IMG/VR virus record: IMGVR_UViG_3300020045_001198
Span: 1 to 40,794 of that record
Strand: one strand, 5' to 3'
Length of the DNA stretch: 40,794 bases
Origin: a virus
Lineage: Duplodnaviria > Caudoviricetes
Shown here piece by piece: positions 1 to 39,203 of the stretch; the stretch's first letter is position 1, and each line of letters opens with the position of its first letter. Position numbers and translations under genes: made by a program. The notes beneath the pieces are model-generated. The model saw nothing but the letters and a program-made list of their open reading frames with translations. It searched no databases and had not been told where the DNA came from.

Positions 1-161
1 CTAATTTATATGGATGTTCCTGTTATGTTCAGTCGATAGGGGGGGGGGGCATGAAGCGTGAGGGTGTTGGTACGTAGAGAGAGGCCACTCTCACAATATT
101 AAAAAAAATTTGAATCATCACCTCTAAAATCGATTTTAAAGCCCGCTGAGACGTAGACAAT

Positions 162-189
162 AAAAAAGGCCCCCAGACACCTGGAGACC
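162..189 (-). terminator. Rho-independent terminator (leftward)
   Basis: Minus strand GGTCTCCAG-GTGT-CTGGGGGCC-TTTTTT: 9-bp stem with 2 G-U pairs followed by U6. Confidence 0.8.
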
Positions 190-331
190 TCTTAACCCGT
201 CTGTACGGGGCTTATTTCGCAATCTACGGCATATTGACAACCAATAAGGCCTCCCGAAGGTCGGCCCCCTCATTCATACGAGAGAGTTCACCCTTCAGAA
301 GGCCTTACAAAGACGTAGGATCACCTCCTTT

Positions 332-358
332 CTACGTACGAGACACAGAAACAATCAT
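332..358 (-). CDS. Mini-ORF MIVSVSRT (8 aa), possible leader peptide
   Basis: Very strong SD AGAAAGGAGG-GATC-ATG; the TAG stop overlaps a second, longer SD. Confidence 0.35.
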   Translation of the reverse strand: MIVSVSRT

Positions 359-401
359 GATCCCTCCTTTCTCTACAAAATCCGTGGTGTAGTATTCTAA
401 A

Positions 402-466
402 AATTATCTAGAAACTATCTAGATTATAACAGTTAATATTATTAATTGTTATATCTCTAGATAATT
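402..466. repeat. AT-rich nested inverted repeats
   Basis: AATTATCTAGA (402-412)/TCTAGATAATT (456-466) perfect IR enclosing a 14-bp IR 425-438/440-453 with one mismatch. Confidence 0.75.
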
Positions 467-503: not shown

Positions 504-532
504 ATTTTATCATATTTTGAGGGAAATGTCAA
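504..532 (-). promoter_or_regulatory. Sigma70-type promoter, leftward
   Basis: TTGACA (532-527) - 17 bp - TAAAAT (509-504) with extended -10 TGn. Confidence 0.8.
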
Positions 533-590
533 GACAAAAATTACAAAATCATAAAAAATTATAAATTTCCCCTTCTTTGTACGATTTCTC

Positions 591-619
591 TTGACTTCTC
601 GTACGAAATATGGTATAAT
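591..619 (+). promoter_or_regulatory. Sigma70-type promoter for the packaging/virion arm
   Basis: TTGACT (591-596) - 17 bp - TATAAT (614-619) with extended -10 TGn. Confidence 0.85.
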
Positions 620-33164: not shown

Positions 33165-33956
33165 TTAATTCTCCAAAGAGTTGAAGTAGTTCTTGTAATC
33201 TATGATGGTTTGCCCCTCCAAACCGGGGGCAGTATTAACTTCGAGGACGGTTGCTCTCCCTTTCGTTTCATTCCATATAACGTCTACTGCTCCGAAGTCA
33301 AGGTCAATTCTGTCAAAGACGACACGCGCCGCATCAAGACACTGATCAGGCATAGTAAAGCCACCCCTGATGAAGATAAACCCATTGTGATGGTTACGGA
33401 CTCTCCAGTCTGTAGGTTCTTCACCGTGACGTGTCGCTTTCTTTTGGATTGCGATGGTTTCAAGGGTGTTATCAAACTGTGCTGATCTACGGTCGCCTTC
33501 GGCGGATACCCGACGGAAGACTCGCTTCTTTCCGAGATGGATTCGGAACTCTTCTTTCTTCTTAAGATATTCCACGTACAACGAGGCATCTACAAGCTCC
33601 TGTCTGTTCTCGGCGATGACTATACCGCGTCCTGAGTGACCTTTCAGGACTGTCCTACATACGATAGGAAAGGCGTCGTCAGGGATACCTCTACGATCCT
33701 CCCAGAACCTTGGTATCACATCGGTATCTCCCATCCTACGAAAGAACTTAAGCTTGTTCGTAGCGGTGGAGAGTTCTTCTGCGTTACCGTTCAGACTTGG
33801 GAAAGGAGGGGGTCGGGAGTTCCCCCAGTTCACTATGAGATCCCTTTCCCGGTACCTGTACCTACTTCCTTCTAGCAGTAGAACACGTCCTCCTAACACG
33901 TCTGCTAAAGCTCGGGCAGACCTCGACCCTTGCTTGTATGGATATATCTTAATCAT
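33165..33956 (-). CDS. ATP-grasp ligase (RimK/glutathione synthetase-like, phiEco32 type)
   Basis: NWG, NKL, GHSGRGI, EFRIH, RNHHNGF, DFGAVDV, LEVNTAPG. Confidence 0.9.
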   Translation of the reverse strand: MIKIYPYKQGSRSARALADVLGGRVLLLEGSRYRYRERDLIVNWGNSRPPPFPSLNGNAEELSTATNKLKFFRRMGDTDVIPRFWEDRRGIPDDAFPIVCRTVLKGHSGRGIVIAENRQELVDASLYVEYLKKKEEFRIHLGKKRVFRRVSAEGDRRSAQFDNTLETIAIQKKATRHGEEPTDWRVRNHHNGFIFIRGGFTMPDQCLDAARVVFDRIDLDFGAVDVIWNETKGRATVLEVNTAPGLEGQTIIDYKNYFNSLEN

Positions 33957-35353
33957 CCAAAATCCTCATCCGCATCTTCGTTTCTTTCTAACCTTGCGTT
34001 TTCGATCTGCATCTCTGCCATAGTTCGTACCACACCTTGAGCAGGGACTCTATTTCTGATACGAGGAGTGACATCAAAATCTTCTGATCCTTCGAATGTG
34101 CCGTCTTGTCGATACCAATACGGATCTCCTACATTAATTCCATTAATGATCAGTTCGTTATTTTCCGATACTACGCAGTACAACCTGTTTTGCCCTTGCC
34201 TTGGAGATATATATAATCTCGCAGCATCGCCTGTAGTGAACTCAATAGGGAGATTGTAATCTACGTCGTCTCCTCGAAGGATGACGTCAAAGTCATGTTG
34301 CTGAGGAACTTCCACAGGTTCCGGAACTATAAATCTGTCCAACCCTCTAAGAGGATCACCTCGTCTAATACGAATGCCGGGGTCAACTCTAGTGAAAGAT
34401 GACCCCTTACTTGCAAAAGGGTTTGGGATGTACTCCTCATGAATCATCGGCTGCCATACTGACCAAGGATATCCTAGAACAATCTTCTGTGTCCTGCGGA
34501 ACCCGTCGAGACACATCCTGTCGAAGGCAGTGTTGTCGGGATGGTCTAGAACAGACTCGGTAAACCTTGGATGGAGGTTCTTACACACCTCCTTGAACAG
34601 TTCTCGTCCTCCCTTCTCCGACACACCAGAAGAAAGCAGAGACGGATTGGGATTGGCACTGGCGTAGTCGAACAACGCATCTACGAACAACGCCCAATCG
34701 ATAATTGGCTGGGGATCTTCGCTGGCCCTCATAACACGGAACTCGAAAGAACCCAACGTCGACATAGTTACTATGTTCAAGCCGGAGTACTTCATCTGTC
34801 CCTCGTCAAGAGGGTCACTACGTCCTTGTAGGTACTTGTCCCACCAGTCTGTAACGACTGTCTGCTCCGACGAAGGAAGACAGAAATGGTTTACCTTCCT
34901 TTCGTCTCCACACCAGTTAATCAGACACTCTTCGAAGATCGTCCACAACGTAATGACAGTCGTCAATTCGTCGAGACGCTTCCCTCCTACGTTCCTATGG
35001 ACGTGAGTAGAACACCGATTACTAAGATTGAATCGGATACCTGACTTCTGCATGGCGTCGTACAAACCGAGGACAAGGGTAGGGACTTCTCCCGCGTTAC
35101 AAGGTCGGTCAAGGACGTACTCGATAGCTTCCCCACGGAGCGACCCGTCAGCCTTGCCGAGCCACCTAGCACCTGTCTCAGGGCCGATAAGGAAGTCGAA
35201 CGTCGCGGGAGCAGGAAGGTTGTTCGCCTCAATCTCCAGTTCAAGTCCGATATCCCCTAGAAGATTCTTAGCAGCCACTGGCTGGTTCATCTTTCTTCCG
35301 GGGATACCGGAGACTTCCTTAATCCCTTCTTTATACACTTCAAGAAATGACAT
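33953..35353 (-). CDS. Putative amidoligase (Amidoligase_2-type COOH-NH2 ligase) with C-terminal extension
   Basis: GLELEIE, DGSLR, EY, STHVH, KYSGLN, GSFEFR. Confidence 0.9.
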   Translation of the reverse strand: MSFLEVYKEGIKEVSGIPGRKMNQPVAAKNLLGDIGLELEIEANNLPAPATFDFLIGPETGARWLGKADGSLRGEAIEYVLDRPCNAGEVPTLVLGLYDAMQKSGIRFNLSNRCSTHVHRNVGGKRLDELTTVITLWTIFEECLINWCGDERKVNHFCLPSSEQTVVTDWWDKYLQGRSDPLDEGQMKYSGLNIVTMSTLGSFEFRVMRASEDPQPIIDWALFVDALFDYASANPNPSLLSSGVSEKGGRELFKEVCKNLHPRFTESVLDHPDNTAFDRMCLDGFRRTQKIVLGYPWSVWQPMIHEEYIPNPFASKGSSFTRVDPGIRIRRGDPLRGLDRFIVPEPVEVPQQHDFDVILRGDDVDYNLPIEFTTGDAARLYISPRQGQNRLYCVVSENNELIINGINVGDPYWYRQDGTFEGSEDFDVTPRIRNRVPAQGVVRTMAEMQIENARLERNEDADEDFG

Positions 35354-36001
35354 TTAGAACTCCGTCATTGATGTGAAAGAAACTTCAGGACTTTCAAGAA
35401 TCTCTTCCTTCAGATACGAGAACTTACTGGTAAGAAGTAGCGACGACACACCTGTAAAAACTCCGACTGTGTCCTTGTGGTAATGTAAACGACGAAGTCC
35501 TTCGTTGTCCATGCTTATAGCGAGTTTGTTTGACAATGCGATTACCCCTTCAGGCTTGATAATCCGAAGAACTTCTCGCATATCAGGGAAGTCATTATTT
35601 ACAGCCTGAGAGTAACCTTCATCTTGTACGACGTTACCAAGATCGTAGTCTCGCCAGTACATTTCGAATATAGGAGGTGAGATATTTCCGACCTTGGTAT
35701 TGGTCGTAGTCATGCCGTGTTTCGTAGTTCGTACAGCACCTCGACTGAGGTACAACGCTCTCTTAGCGGAGTAACAATTCGTCCACCCTTTAGGAAGTGT
35801 CTTCCTGAAACGGTGAAAGCCTTTATCATTCAACGGGAGGAACGAATGCTTCTTGGTTGGGTAGATGTTGGCGGCTGCTACAGGACCGTCACGTCCTTCC
35901 TGAACTTCACGGATGTAAACGACAGCCCCGTTGTAAGGGACATAAGACCCAGAGAGTCTATCGTTCGCTTGAGCTAGGTCTTCCCAAAAGAAGTCAGTCA
36001 T
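35354..36001 (-). CDS. Hypothetical protein within the amidoligase cluster
   Basis: TAATG coupling to upstream gene; abuts downstream gene; 215 aa. Confidence 0.8.
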   Translation of the reverse strand: MTDFFWEDLAQANDRLSGSYVPYNGAVVYIREVQEGRDGPVAAANIYPTKKHSFLPLNDKGFHRFRKTLPKGWTNCYSAKRALYLSRGAVRTTKHGMTTTNTKVGNISPPIFEMYWRDYDLGNVVQDEGYSQAVNNDFPDMREVLRIIKPEGVIALSNKLAISMDNEGLRRLHYHKDTVGVFTGVSSLLLTSKFSYLKEEILESPEVSFTSMTEF

Positions 36002-36969
36002 TAGAACGGACCTGGAGTGGCAGTGTTATACGTTGTTGAGAAGGCTGTAGTCATAGAAGCTGCCTTACTCTTCTTCTTGTTCTTTACAGAGACTTCACCT
36101 TCCGGGGTGACACGAAGTTTGTACTCCTTAGAGATGCAGTTCCAGACATTGTCACCAATATAACCACGTTCCCGCAGATAACGAAGCCAGTCGTAAGCAG
36201 TTCCGTAGTCTCCTTCGTTGACAATATCTTGCTGGCTCAGCCGAGTCCACTTAGAGAACAGTTTCTTCAAACTTTCGGAGTGTGTCGTCGCGCTTCTCGT
36301 CAACTCGTAGATGACATACGCCCTCTCACCAGACTTCAACCACACGTTGGAGGGGGTACGGTACTCGACGCCGTAGCTCTTAGGGCGAAATGCTCCCGCC
36401 TTACCGTAAAGTTCTCGACGACGAGGGTCTGTGTCGATGATAGTCATGAACATACCGACTGTGAGGTCCAACGACTGGACGAAATCAGCACAGATTTTGA
36501 CATGTTCGGGATGATCGGCAGGAATACCTGCGTCCCACCCTACGTGGATATGCCCTGCTGCTGTGCGGATATTACCGGTCCTGTCAGGACGGGGATTAGG
36601 AGCGAGGGTGTATGCGTTGTAGTCGGGATCACAACCAAGATCAAGGGCCTTACGGGGAAAGGTAGCCATGTCCTCGTCGGTGTATTCCTGTACCGAAGAC
36701 AGGTTGAATTCAAGTGTAGAATCAACCGTACCAACCTGCCGTTGCAGTTGTCCCATAACCTTCTGGCACCGCTTCCACAACGACGTAGCATTACTCCCAT
36801 CGAGAGGGATAGGGTCGATGTTGAATTCGAGGGCAGTACCATCGACTTGGATAGCCCCTTCATCGACAGGATAAGGATTCCGCTTCGTACCAGGGATGGT
36901 TCCGTGGCCAGAAACGGCCTTGCCAGCCCGAGTGAGAAAGATTTCAGGATCAGCACCAATAGTAAACAT
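36001..36969 (-). CDS. phiEco32-like COOH-NH2 ligase type 2
   Basis: TIGADPE, GTK..P, D...EFN, GCDPD, GHIHVG, RRELYGKAG.FR.K.YGVEYRT.SN. Confidence 0.93.
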   Translation of the reverse strand: MFTIGADPEIFLTRAGKAVSGHGTIPGTKRNPYPVDEGAIQVDGTALEFNIDPIPLDGSNATSLWKRCQKVMGQLQRQVGTVDSTLEFNLSSVQEYTDEDMATFPRKALDLGCDPDYNAYTLAPNPRPDRTGNIRTAAGHIHVGWDAGIPADHPEHVKICADFVQSLDLTVGMFMTIIDTDPRRRELYGKAGAFRPKSYGVEYRTPSNVWLKSGERAYVIYELTRSATTHSESLKKLFSKWTRLSQQDIVNEGDYGTAYDWLRYLRERGYIGDNVWNCISKEYKLRVTPEGEVSVKNKKKSKAASMTTAFSTTYNTATPGPF

Positions 36970-36989
36970 AAAACCTCTTTCTTAGATAG

Positions 36990-37024
36990 TTATTAATATT
37001 AATATATATATATATAAATATATA
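36990..37024. repeat. 35-nt A/T-only tract with a palindrome and TA dinucleotide run
   Basis: TATTAATATTAATA perfect palindrome (36991-37004) followed by (TA)n. Confidence 0.7.
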
Positions 37025-38407
37025 CTACGCTATGGCGGGTACCGTACATGACGTACACACGAACGACGCCGTCGTGTAATCACCGTCCGTTGTAATCATT
37101 TCTGATACATCGGAAAGATCTCCTATCGGAGTATCACACCACGAACAAATTCCGTTTGTAAGTTCTTCGAAACGTTTGAGAGTCATCTCTCGTCCTGTAC
37201 GATTGTCAGTGATAAACTCGATCCCTGCCATCCTCCTCCGGGACACTCCCGACTTGTTCCTTTTCGACCTCCTTCCTATGTCTACGTCGCACCTCGAAAT
37301 CAACCCGTCGCAATCTCTTGAGACATTTCCGCTGCTTCCCGACTGACCATTGGGTAAACTCAAGACGGGGCGGGATACCGTTTCTCGTAAGTAGTTCAGT
37401 CGCTTCCTCAAGACCTCTGCCGAATCCGTACTCAGAAGTGAAGAAGGAGACGAGTCCGTCGTTGAGGAAGTCGAAGGTGTCGACTCTTCCAGATTCTGCG
37501 TAAGTTCCAGCGGGCTTTGGCGGTGTTGGAGGTTGCTTCGGACGAACGGTATATCCGGTTCCAGTAGATCGTCGTCCAGAAAAGGGCTGGCTACCTGCCC
37601 TCCGCCGTGTAGTCGTGTTACGTTACCACCCCCAATGTTCCCACGGACCCCGCCCTGAAAGTTTCCCGCGTAACGTCGGACCTCCCCTTCAACCTTGCGA
37701 GGAGCTTTCAGTGTGAAGATGTCGTTTCCTGTGTTAGCAAAGCCGTCGACTTCATACTTGAACCACATATTCTCTTTCAACGGGTAAGGCCCTGATTCGT
37801 CTAGATCTTTCCCGACACGACGTTCAATTACGGAGAACATCCAAGGTTCAGAAGCCCAGTAGATAGCCTTCGTATCCTTTGAGTGGCAGAACCACAACGG
37901 ACGTTTGTCATTCCGTAGGAAGTTCATCGTCTGATCGTTGCCGTCCCACCATGCAAGAGCCCAAGCACCGTCATTGTCGAGGCCTGTAATAGTCTCCTCG
38001 ACGCCGTACTTGGCCATGTGACTGTAAAGGAACTCTGAATCGGTGTCGTACTCACGACCTCCGTCCATGTTACAATACCCTTGGAGAGTACCGTTATGGA
38101 CTCCCCACAGGTCGTCAGCCTTGAAGGGATGGGCATTCCGAGGGTGATTATCTCCTATCGTCTTCGCTCGAACATGTCCGAGGAGTACCTTCGGCATCCC
38201 ACTTTCAATGTCCTTATCGTAACTCTTCCGGTCGAAGAGAGTATCAGGAAGCCCGACATCCTTCAGGAGGTTGACAGCACCGTCGCACTTCACTCGAAGA
38301 ACACCCGTAGCGTCCTTACCACGAAGTGTAGCTACAGTCATCAAATCCTTGAAGACTGCTTTATGGGTAACATCAAGATTACCCATAACACCTACTATTC
38401 CACACAT
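37025..38407 (-). CDS. Class II (Ntn) glutamine amidotransferase with C-terminal extension and C4 zinc motif
   Basis: MCGIVG, RG.DATG, GHVR.KT, NAHPF, HNGT, TDSE, RN.KRPL, WASE; C-terminal CSWC...CTSC. Confidence 0.92.
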   Translation of the reverse strand: MCGIVGVMGNLDVTHKAVFKDLMTVATLRGKDATGVLRVKCDGAVNLLKDVGLPDTLFDRKSYDKDIESGMPKVLLGHVRAKTIGDNHPRNAHPFKADDLWGVHNGTLQGYCNMDGGREYDTDSEFLYSHMAKYGVEETITGLDNDGAWALAWWDGNDQTMNFLRNDKRPLWFCHSKDTKAIYWASEPWMFSVIERRVGKDLDESGPYPLKENMWFKYEVDGFANTGNDIFTLKAPRKVEGEVRRYAGNFQGGVRGNIGGGNVTRLHGGGQVASPFLDDDLLEPDIPFVRSNLQHRQSPLELTQNLEESTPSTSSTTDSSPSSLLSTDSAEVLRKRLNYLRETVSRPVLSLPNGQSGSSGNVSRDCDGLISRCDVDIGRRSKRNKSGVSRRRMAGIEFITDNRTGREMTLKRFEELTNGICSWCDTPIGDLSDVSEMITTDGDYTTASFVCTSCTVPAIA

Positions 38408-38411
38408 ATTA

Positions 38412-39203
38412 TTACCCCAGTTGAGTCAGAACTTCTTCGACGATTTCTTTATGAGTGGAAGTAGGAGGTTTAACAGCCTCCCAATCCATAACGAAATCAT
38501 GCAATTTCGTCATACACCACGACCGATATTCAGAGTCTCCGACCTCGGGATGCCCTTGAACGAAGAAACACTTCGTATCGGGATAACATCCTGCCTCGAT
38601 CTCAAGCTCGTGTGAGTTCGTACCGAGAGTTGTAGTCGATGTGTCGTCACGGAAGAATCGGCTAACCTGTTCCTCAGTAACAGCAATGAGCGTCATCGTG
38701 TCGTTCATACGAAGCATCTGGTGATGGATGCTTGTAGATAGGACACGCTCGTCAGTCTCAATATCGACGATGTAGTGGTCCTTACCGCCGTGGCCATCTA
38801 CATGTTGCCACAGCTTACCTCCGTTCATCGCGTGAAGGAATTGAGCACCTCGGCAGATGCCGAACATGACCTTACCAAGACGGACACATTTGTGATAGTA
38901 TGTCTCCTCTACGATATCCCGATCAGGATCGAAGTATGTAGTAGGAAGGGCTGTCTCTCCGTACAGTTTCGGGTTGATATCATCGCCTCCTGCGAAGACG
39001 ATGACGTCAGACTCTTCGACTGTCCTACCACGACTGAAACCTGCCTCAGCCATAAGCTGGACGATTGCGCCGTAAAAGGCTCCGGGAAGTACGAAAGCCT
39101 TCATACCTTTGAACGATGGAATGTCCTTACGGACCCAATCCGTCGTGCCTTGGGATACTACAGTCCCCTCCGGGGTAATTCCCGAACTGGCTTTACTTGA
39201 CAT
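38412..39203 (-). CDS. Class I glutamine amidotransferase / gamma-glutamyl hydrolase (peptidase C26-like)
   Basis: GG.DINP..YG, RD..E, GICRGAQ, HHQ, QGHPE catalytic triad motifs. Confidence 0.92.
   Translation of the reverse strand: MSSKASSGITPEGTVVSQGTTDWVRKDIPSFKGMKAFVLPGAFYGAIVQLMAEAGFSRGRTVEESDVIVFAGGDDINPKLYGETALPTTYFDPDRDIVEETYYHKCVRLGKVMFGICRGAQFLHAMNGGKLWQHVDGHGGKDHYIVDIETDERVLSTSIHHQMLRMNDTMTLIAVTEEQVSRFFRDDTSTTTLGTNSHELEIEAGCYPDTKCFFVQGHPEVGDSEYRSWCMTKLHDFVMDWEAVKPPTSTHKEIVEEVLTQLG

What the first reader, a model, noticed from the sequence alone, without database searches (positions are those of the whole stretch)
313..372. Perfect 16-nt complement of the 16S rRNA 3' end in a hairpin loop, paired with a second super-SD and an 8-codon mini-ORF
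Seen: the plus strand at 318-333 reads GGATCACCTCCTTTCT, the bacterial 16S 3'-terminal sequence (established; this form is typical of Alphaproteobacteria among others). The leftward RNA therefore carries AGAAAGGAGGUGAUCC, displayed between ACGUAG/CUACGU arms, with no well-spaced start codon after it. A near-copy (AGAAAGGAGGGAUC, 372-359) drives MIVSVSRT*, whose UAG overlaps the long SD. The gene SDs I checked elsewhere in this phage are far shorter. Inference: a 30S-capturing device (ribosome sponge for host shut-off, a STAB-SD-like stabiliser, or a post-termination ribosome trap), or an anti-SD mimic if the plus strand is transcribed. This is my best candidate for an undescribed system.
Basis: partly seen in the sequence, partly recalled or inferred. 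Interest (0 to 1): 0.85.

Follow-up and report, generated by a model that had tools for sequence, protein, structure and literature searches.

The report
Phage copy of ribosome-docking mini-mRNA
An uncultured phage carries two unusually long matches to the tail of 16S rRNA in a short non-coding stretch, closely copying the ribosome-binding site of a known but unexplained small mRNA family of alphaproteobacteria (rre) except for a crippled start codon, so its RNA likely holds ribosomal subunits in place rather than making much protein; related phages lack it and nothing has been tested.

Summary
The sequence is as described: minus-strand SD2 (333-318, 16 nt perfect) and SD1 (372-359) are the two strongest 16S-tail sites in the genome (-29.8, -22.1 kcal/mol; gene RBSs -2 to -12), lying between a sigma70-type promoter and a terminator. 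Three corrections. The 'SD in a loop' is not predicted on the minus strand: SD1 and its ORF pair with SD2 until SD1 is occupied. SD2 is followed by ACG-TCT in the register where alphaproteobacterial rreB/rreR/CC2171 mini-mRNAs have GTG/ATG-TCT. SD1 also has a well-spaced TTG opening 19 codons. So it works like an rre ribosome-docking mRNA (Hahn 2017: binds 30S, barely translated, no growth effect on overexpression) but fails membership. Against a shut-off system: absent from the same strand in 45 of 45 distant relatives. It fits a wider viral class: perfect SD fused to a stop codon, then a near-cognate start (usually ATC). The scan noted similar elements before on other DNA. No reads or RNA data were listed. 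New variant of a known kind; interest 0.5.

The parts
504..532 (-). sigma70-type promoter P1 (TTGACA-17-TAAAAT, TG extension); predicted start about 497
   Evidence: 11 of 12 matches; a leftward promoter pattern in 26 of 45 relatives
394..452 (-). two weaker promoter-like sites (452-423, 10/12; 421-394, 9/12) in AT-rich DNA; the second would start about 15 nt before SD1
   Evidence: consensus matches only
359..372 (-). SD1: 10-nt perfect plus 4-nt extension after a 1-nt gap; -22.1 kcal/mol with the 16S tail; 5' seed partly unpaired
332..358 (-). ORF1a MIVSVSRT* (ATG at 4-nt spacer; in-frame ATT at 7 nt); stop TAG fused to first two bases of SD2
295..354 (-). ORF1b, alternative frame from TTG at 8-nt spacer, 19 codons, reads through SD2
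318..333 (-). SD2: perfect 16-nt complement of the 16S 3' tail, -29.8 kcal/mol
311..332 (-). 22-nt rre/CC2171-type RBS motif: extended SD, 1 nt, ACG in the start-codon slot, TCT
305..316 (-). putative ORF2 from near-cognate ACG: ACG TCT TTG TAA (3 codons)
   Evidence: use of ACG is inferred
306..376 (-). predicted rod in which SD1 and ORF1 sequester SD2 (-21.8 kcal/mol, z -2.7)
313..337 (+). plus-strand 8-bp hairpin (313-320/330-337) with anti-SD loop 321-329; relevant only if the plus strand is transcribed
245..307 (-). strong hairpin right after SD2 (-38.3 kcal/mol, z -6.4); its 3' arm holds the clade-conserved GA/GA hairpin motif (248-266)
158..193 (-). intrinsic terminator-like hairpin and U-run
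591..619 (+). divergent late promoter for gp1/terS/terL (context)

Best explanation
The phage carries, between a leftward promoter-like site and a terminator-like hairpin, two extended Shine-Dalgarno sequences 39 nt apart, the second matching the ribosome-binding site of alphaproteobacterial rre small mRNAs with ACG in place of the start codon, and the RNA likely works as a two-step ribosome-docking mini-mRNA that is predicted to hold a 30S subunit rather than yield protein. Shown: the motifs, their rank, the register match to rre, minus-strand folding bias. Predicted: in naked RNA SD1 and its ORF pair with SD2; only SD1's 5' seed is partly open, as in rre. Inferred: a 30S loads at SD1 and initiates (8 or 19 codons), which opens the rod; SD2 then binds a 16S tail over 16 bp, taken by the ribosome terminating on the fused UAG or by a second 30S; ACG supports very little initiation, so the complex is long-lived. 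Inferred outcome: ribosome occupancy sets the stability or processing of this leftward terminal-region RNA (as for rreB and STAB-SD), not global host shut-off.
For: Rfam CC2171 consensus aligns over GAAAGGAGGUGAUCC-N3-GUCU independently of my pattern (E 9e-5 within the genome). That pattern has about 5,500 hits in GTDB, the listed ones almost all Alphaproteobacteria; 115 of 120 use the phage's 3-nt gap although 0-4 was allowed, 119 of 120 have GTG/ATG/TTG there, 113 of 120 ORFs are 14-26 codons. Named endolysin homologues are Novosphingobium/Alphaproteobacteria at 49-52% and top TerL hits are Brevundimonas phages. Strand: 158-400 folds at z -5.1 with 16 G-U pairs on minus against z -2.3 and 7 on plus. 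Switch: blocking 375-345 raises unpaired probability of SD2's first three bases from 0.0 to 0.7-0.8; host rre sites show the same open seed (0.55-0.83, n=117). rreB experiments (PMC5711450). ACG initiates weakly but measurably in E. coli (10.1101/063800). Independent recurrences: identical 22-mer plus 4 codons and a hairpin in an intergenic region of metagenome contig L371; same double-SD, 9-codon ORF, stop fused to SD2, mutual sequestration in L396. Wider viral class: 11 of 19 non-coding start-less 16-mer families have ATC-T in the start slot (controls 0-1; better-pairing ACCT 0 of 19); 21 of 46 such families have a long frame's stop fused to the SD (controls 0-4).
Against: Not conserved: best minus-strand duplex -10.2 to -21.6 in 45 relatives; none below -21 in 24 capsid-related loci; one perfect 15-mer in 48 records, on the other strand. 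ACG is not a host start (0 of 120; 0 of 23 hits in 201 genomes) and the ACG variant is rare (5 viral hits, none clean; 2 metagenome hits). The GTCT match could come from the phage's own AGACGTAG repeat (3 of 6 copies in the first 700 nt). Only 1 of 6 tandem-SD hits shares the architecture. A downstream terminator was found in only 6 of 26 relatives with the leftward promoter. Rfam score 23.6 against a cut-off of 75. No transcript evidence.
Confidence: 0.48

Rival explanations
1. SD1 is simply a strong RBS for a small peptide (19 codons from TTG, or 8 from ATG), and SD2 is an internal pause or attenuation site or a recent duplicate of SD1.
For: TTG at 354 has textbook 8-nt spacing and gives a 19-aa ORF, the size of rre peptides. 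SD1 and SD2 look like a 39-nt tandem duplication. 18 of 63 viral 16-mer families are followed by a canonical start; relatives L158 and L191 use this RBS type in front of their first late ORF or terS.
Against: SD2 is the more perfect copy and would sit inside the ORF; 16 perfect bases are not needed for coding; no peptide homologue could be searched (too short).
Confidence: 0.2
2. The plus strand is transcribed and shows an anti-SD loop, acting as an antisense RNA against host rre mRNA or strong RBSs.
For: A TTGACA at 234-239 is kept in 19 of 20 relatives that have the GA/GA hairpin.
Against: No plus-strand promoter match upstream; the TTGACA has no -10 at fixed spacing; folding and G-U asymmetry favour minus; no cuckoo-family Rfam hit.
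Confidence: 0.12
3. A dedicated 30S sponge for host translational shut-off.
For: Up to two very strong aSD duplexes per RNA behind an 11/12 promoter; the phage's own RBSs are weak.
Against: 20-fold rreB overproduction did not alter growth because ribosomes are in excess; captured subunits are lost to the phage too; SD2 is predicted occluded; absent in relatives.
Confidence: 0.1
4. A neutral insertion in a hypervariable spacer of the genome-end region (a decayed host rre or rRNA fragment), or an assembly artefact.
For: The site lies in a stretch that is variable and unalignable among relatives; no conservation; the contig is an 85% complete linear record and the site is 320 nt from its end.
Against: The match stops before the rRNA/primer continuation seen in the 3 rRNA-fragment families; two different copies pair with each other and their spacer; same designs occur in L371 and L396.
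Confidence: 0.1

Closest known systems
rreB / rreR small mRNAs of Alphaproteobacteria (Hahn et al., RNA Biol 14:1353, PMC5711450; abstract and parts 1-4 of 5 of the main section read, supplement not read)
   Same: 16-17-nt complement of the 16S tail, weak start codon 7 nt after AGGAGG, tiny ORF, SD sequestered by the RNA's own ORF with a 5' seed open, terminator.
   Different: Phage-borne; two SDs in tandem; ACG instead of GTG/ATG; 3 codons after the perfect SD; SD2 is not at the 5' end and has no AAC leader; stop codon of an upstream mini-ORF fused to it.
Rfam RF01867 CC2171 (Caulobacter sRNA; expression also shown in Methylorubrum, 10.1101/2022.01.24.477521, passages read)
   Same: 5' motif GAAAGGAGGUGAUCC-N3-GUCU; three of my rre-pattern loci score 91-120 bits, so CC2171 is an rre-type mini-mRNA (my inference).
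   Different: Window scores 23.6 bits against a cut-off of 75; only the 5' motif and a terminal hairpin align.
STAB-SD of Bacillus thuringiensis cry3A (review PMC4113751, passages read)
   Same: SD that binds 30S without productive initiation and could block 5'-3' decay.
   Different: No gene lies downstream before the terminator; RNase J blocking in this host is untested.
Extended SD with non-canonical starts in Staphylococcus aureus (PMC13009471; abstract and passages read)
   Same: Extended, start-proximal SD supporting weak near-cognate starts (AUU, AUA).
   Different: Those drive real genes; ACG and AUC do not occur in that main text.

Membership tests
rre small mRNAs (rreB/rreR) | at least 16 nt complementary to the 16S 3' end | tested here: met
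   333-318, 16 nt
rre small mRNAs (rreB/rreR) | GTG or ATG start directly after the extended SD | tested here: not met
   ACG in that slot; hosts 0 of 120 and 0 of 23 ACG
rre small mRNAs (rreB/rreR) | sORF of about 14-26 codons from the extended SD | tested here: not met
   3 codons from SD2; 8 or 19 from SD1; hosts 113 of 120 in 14-26
rre small mRNAs (rreB/rreR) | SD close to the transcript 5' end | tested here: inconclusive
   SD2 at least 54 nt from any predicted start; SD1 about 15 nt from the weakest one; AAC leader in 102 of 117 hosts, absent here
rre small mRNAs (rreB/rreR) | SD sequestered with 5' seed single-stranded | tested here: inconclusive
   predicted for SD1; for SD2 only once SD1 is blocked
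rre small mRNAs (rreB/rreR) | co-sediments with 30S, weakly translated | not testable with these tools
   needs experiment
Rfam CC2171 (RF01867) | score above gathering cut-off 75 bits | tested here: not met
   23.6 bits
STAB-SD | SD that does not direct canonical initiation | tested here: met
   no ATG/GTG/TTG at normal spacing after SD2
STAB-SD | lies in the leader of a downstream gene | tested here: not met
   no SD-led ORF between SD2 and the terminator other than 1-9 codon frames
STAB-SD | blocks RNase J and defines a stable 5' end | not testable with these tools
   no RNA run listed
anti-SD loop sRNAs (cuckoo type; features recalled) | anti-SD displayed in a hairpin loop | tested here: met
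   plus strand only, predicted
anti-SD loop sRNAs (cuckoo type; features recalled) | own promoter on that strand and Rfam match | tested here: not met

The most novel reading that the evidence does not exclude
The phage has built a crippled tandem mimic of its host's rre mRNA, one example of a widespread, undescribed viral device in which a perfect Shine-Dalgarno is fused to a stop codon and followed by a near-cognate start (ATC, here ACG), so that terminating ribosomes are caught as stalled 30S initiation complexes; this would act as a decoy for initiation-proofreading (IF3) or for whatever host factor acts on rre, and would give the first handle on what rre is for.
Probability: 0.2. Interest if true: 0.82.

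Novelty: new variant of a known kind. Interest (0 to 1): 0.5.

Why it matters
rre mini-mRNAs are conserved across Alphaproteobacteria, yet the one paper on them in the library found no function. A phage version with the start codon crippled and the site doubled is a natural variant that separates ribosome docking from peptide synthesis, and is easy to test in Caulobacter or a sphingomonad. The side result, a recurrent stop-fused perfect SD plus near-cognate start after unrelated phage genes, points to a general post-termination ribosome-loading element that gene callers cannot see. The lack of conservation in relatives limits how central this copy can be to the phage.

Tried and rejected
blastn of 1-700 against 50,697 phage records: no match. 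terS search in viral contigs: one distant locus, 42%. Sequencing runs: none was listed, so no read or RNA check was possible. Literature: the 15-mer as text gave 110 papers, the 40 listed being taxonomy or genome reports by title; searches for ribosome sponge/30S sequestration in phages and for ACG + IF3 + strong SD gave none; 'extended Shine-Dalgarno + phage + small RNA + 30S' gave 9 listed and 'perfect Shine-Dalgarno + phage' 1, none describing this element by title or abstract. Idea that ACG-start rre is a common family: rejected. Idea that the ATC class is a toxin-antitoxin module: rejected, the 29 upstream ORFs scanned are unrelated (lysozyme, amidase, holins, PhoH, HNH, glutaredoxin) and 20 loci had no Rfam hit but a tRNA. 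Idea that the element sits elsewhere in relatives' genomes: 1 perfect and 3 two-mismatch hits in 48 records, the latter about what chance gives (my estimate). Primer or rRNA carry-over: rejected as unlikely, not excluded without reads.

Full report
Setting. The window is a whole 40,794-nt linear virus record, 85% complete by CheckV: a podovirus-like phage with terS, terL, P22-type portal and capsid on the plus strand and polymerase, primase-helicase, RNR, amidotransferase and ligase genes on the minus strand. No named phage exceeds 60% protein identity. Named endolysin homologues are Novosphingobium or unclassified Alphaproteobacteria and the best TerL hits are Brevundimonas phages, so an alphaproteobacterial host is likely but inferred.

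Observation. The motifs, arms and 8-codon ORF are as written. A 16-mer is expected 1.9e-5 times per genome. Against the 16S tail, SD2 (-29.8) and SD1 (-22.1) are the two best sites on either strand, and 44 gene RBS regions score -2.2 to -12.1. SD1 beats 300 of 300 shuffles of its own unit, though one unrelated site reaches -21.7. Both lie between a minus-strand promoter match (532-504, 11 of 12) and a terminator-like hairpin (193-164). The 158-400 stretch folds much better on minus (z -5.1, 16 G-U pairs) than on plus (z -2.3, 7).

Corrections. The minus-strand loop display is not predicted: from any of three candidate starts the arm pair has probability 0.000, while SD1 pairs with the 3' half of SD2 and ORF1 with its 5' seed (0.997-1.000). 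Blocking SD1/ORF1, as a ribosome would, frees SD2's first bases (0.7-0.9). The arms do form on the plus strand, with a free anti-SD loop. SD1's ATG is only 4 nt from AGGAGG; an in-frame ATT (7 nt) and an out-of-frame TTG (8 nt, 19 codons through SD2) are alternatives, and SD2 has ACG at 7 nt, opening 3 codons.

What it resembles. Rfam gave one weak but specific alignment, to the 5' motif of CC2171 (23.6 bits, cut-off 75). A scan of GTDB for the shared letters with a 0-4 nt gap estimated about 5,500 stretches; the 120 listed are almost all Alphaproteobacteria. Of these 115 use the phage's 3-nt gap, the codon before TCT is GTG 70, ATG 48, TTG 1, other 1, and 113 ORFs have 14-26 codons. The pattern fixes 19 of 22 letters, so similarity counts are circular; the gap length and the Rfam consensus are not. 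A second search that left the codon free found GTG/ATG/TTG in 23 of 23 hits among 201 genomes. This is the rreB/rreR family of Hahn et al. (PMC5711450; I read the abstract and parts 1-4 of 5 of the main section, not the supplement): the RNA co-sediments with 30S, is barely translated, needs its 5' seed for binding, stays on ribosomes and lasts 37 instead of 10 min when the start is changed to a stop, and does not slow growth when overproduced 20-fold. Three of 17 loci scanned pass the CC2171 cut-off. ACG supports low initiation in E. coli (10.1101/063800, passages).

Conservation, the main result against. Of 80 TerL-related loci, 3 hold a match of 10 nt or more, all on the plus strand; in L158 and L191 it is the RBS of the first late ORF or terS, with TTG-TCT or CTG-TCT. 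I took the 47 of 80 loci with at least 1 kb upstream and 59% or more identity; in the 45 with a locatable late promoter the best minus-strand duplex is -10.2 to -21.6 (four windows were shorter than 500 nt, several loci are near-duplicates). 24 capsid-related loci and 48 whole records, 14 near complete, add nothing. The frame around the element is conserved (leftward promoter pattern 26 of 45, GA/GA hairpin 20 of 45, terminator 6 of 26); the SDs sit in its variable insert. No close relative is available, so recent origin and neutrality cannot be separated.

Recurrences elsewhere. The ACG form is rare: 5 viral hits, none clean, and 2 metagenome hits, of which L371 has the identical 22-mer, four codons and a hairpin in intergenic DNA. 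Of 6 tandem-SD hits, L396 has the same design: SD1, 9 codons, stop fused to a perfect SD, both sequestered in one rod. The 119 listed viral 16-mer hits fall into 63 families: 23 inside long ORFs, 18 with a canonical start, 3 rRNA fragments, 19 start-less; 11 of the 19 have ATC-T in the start slot (0-1 at eight control offsets) and none has the better-pairing ACCT. The 14-mer is followed by ATCT in about 280 stretches, GTCT in 48, ACGT in 5. Of 76 families in the 120 ATCT loci returned, 46 are non-coding, and 21 of those have the stop of a 50-codon-plus frame fused to the SD (0-4 in nine control windows); upstream genes are unrelated. This pattern was noticed post hoc; hairpin pairing (GGAGGU with AUCUCC) may contribute. 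Earlier scan notes describe similar elements on other DNA; they are unchecked and not counted as support.

Mechanism and verdict. Most likely a leftward RNA of 230-340 nt in which a ribosome loading at SD1 unmasks SD2, where a 30S is held over a near-cognate start and governs the RNA's stability or processing (0.48). Rivals: plain small-peptide RBS (0.2), plus-strand antisense to host rre or strong RBSs (0.12), shut-off sponge (0.1), neutral insert or artefact (0.1). It works like rre but is not a member. I found no description of a phage-borne or tandem form in searches; subscription papers and unread supplements may hold one. New variant of a known kind, interest 0.5.

Noticed in passing
window 234-266; TerL relatives L122-L197: Conserved terminal-region motif: minus-strand hairpin GGGC/GGCC-GA-stem-GA-GCCC/GGCC with a covarying inner stem in 20 of 45 relatives, followed by GTCAA (plus-strand TTGAC without a fixed -10) in 19 of 20; likely an origin or packaging signal (inference).
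   Followed up: partly
window 504-619: Divergent sigma70-type promoter pair upstream of terS; the leftward one recurs in 26 of 45 relatives and faces the genome end with no gene before it.
   Followed up: partly
L158:512-530 and L191:3426-3444: Two relatives use an rre-type RBS with TTG-TCT or CTG-TCT for their first late ORF or terS; L158 also has an 11-nt anti-SD on the leftward strand in the same variable insert, complementary to that RBS.
   Followed up: partly
viral loci L408-L525: Undescribed-looking class: perfect SD, 0-4 nt, ATC-T, often fused to the stop codon of unrelated phage genes; no Rfam match in 20 loci.
   Followed up: partly
L293, L252, L274: Rfam 'sRNA' CC2171 matches loci that have the rre RBS and a short ORF, so it is probably an rre-type mini-mRNA.
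   Followed up: partly
L371:2593-3060: Bacterial metagenome contig with a tRNA-Ile(TAT) divergent from the 22-mer identical to the phage's; rreB also neighbours a tRNA gene.
   Followed up: no
window 149, 311, 673: AGACGTAG occurs three times in the first 700 nt, of six copies in the genome.
   Followed up: no
window 33165-39203: Cluster of ATP-grasp (RimK-like), amidoligase, COOH.NH2 ligase and two amidotransferase genes.
   Followed up: no
L343:3001-3060: Viral contig with a canonical rre-type RBS and an 11-codon basic ORF just after a gene, possibly a phage-encoded rre.
   Followed up: no
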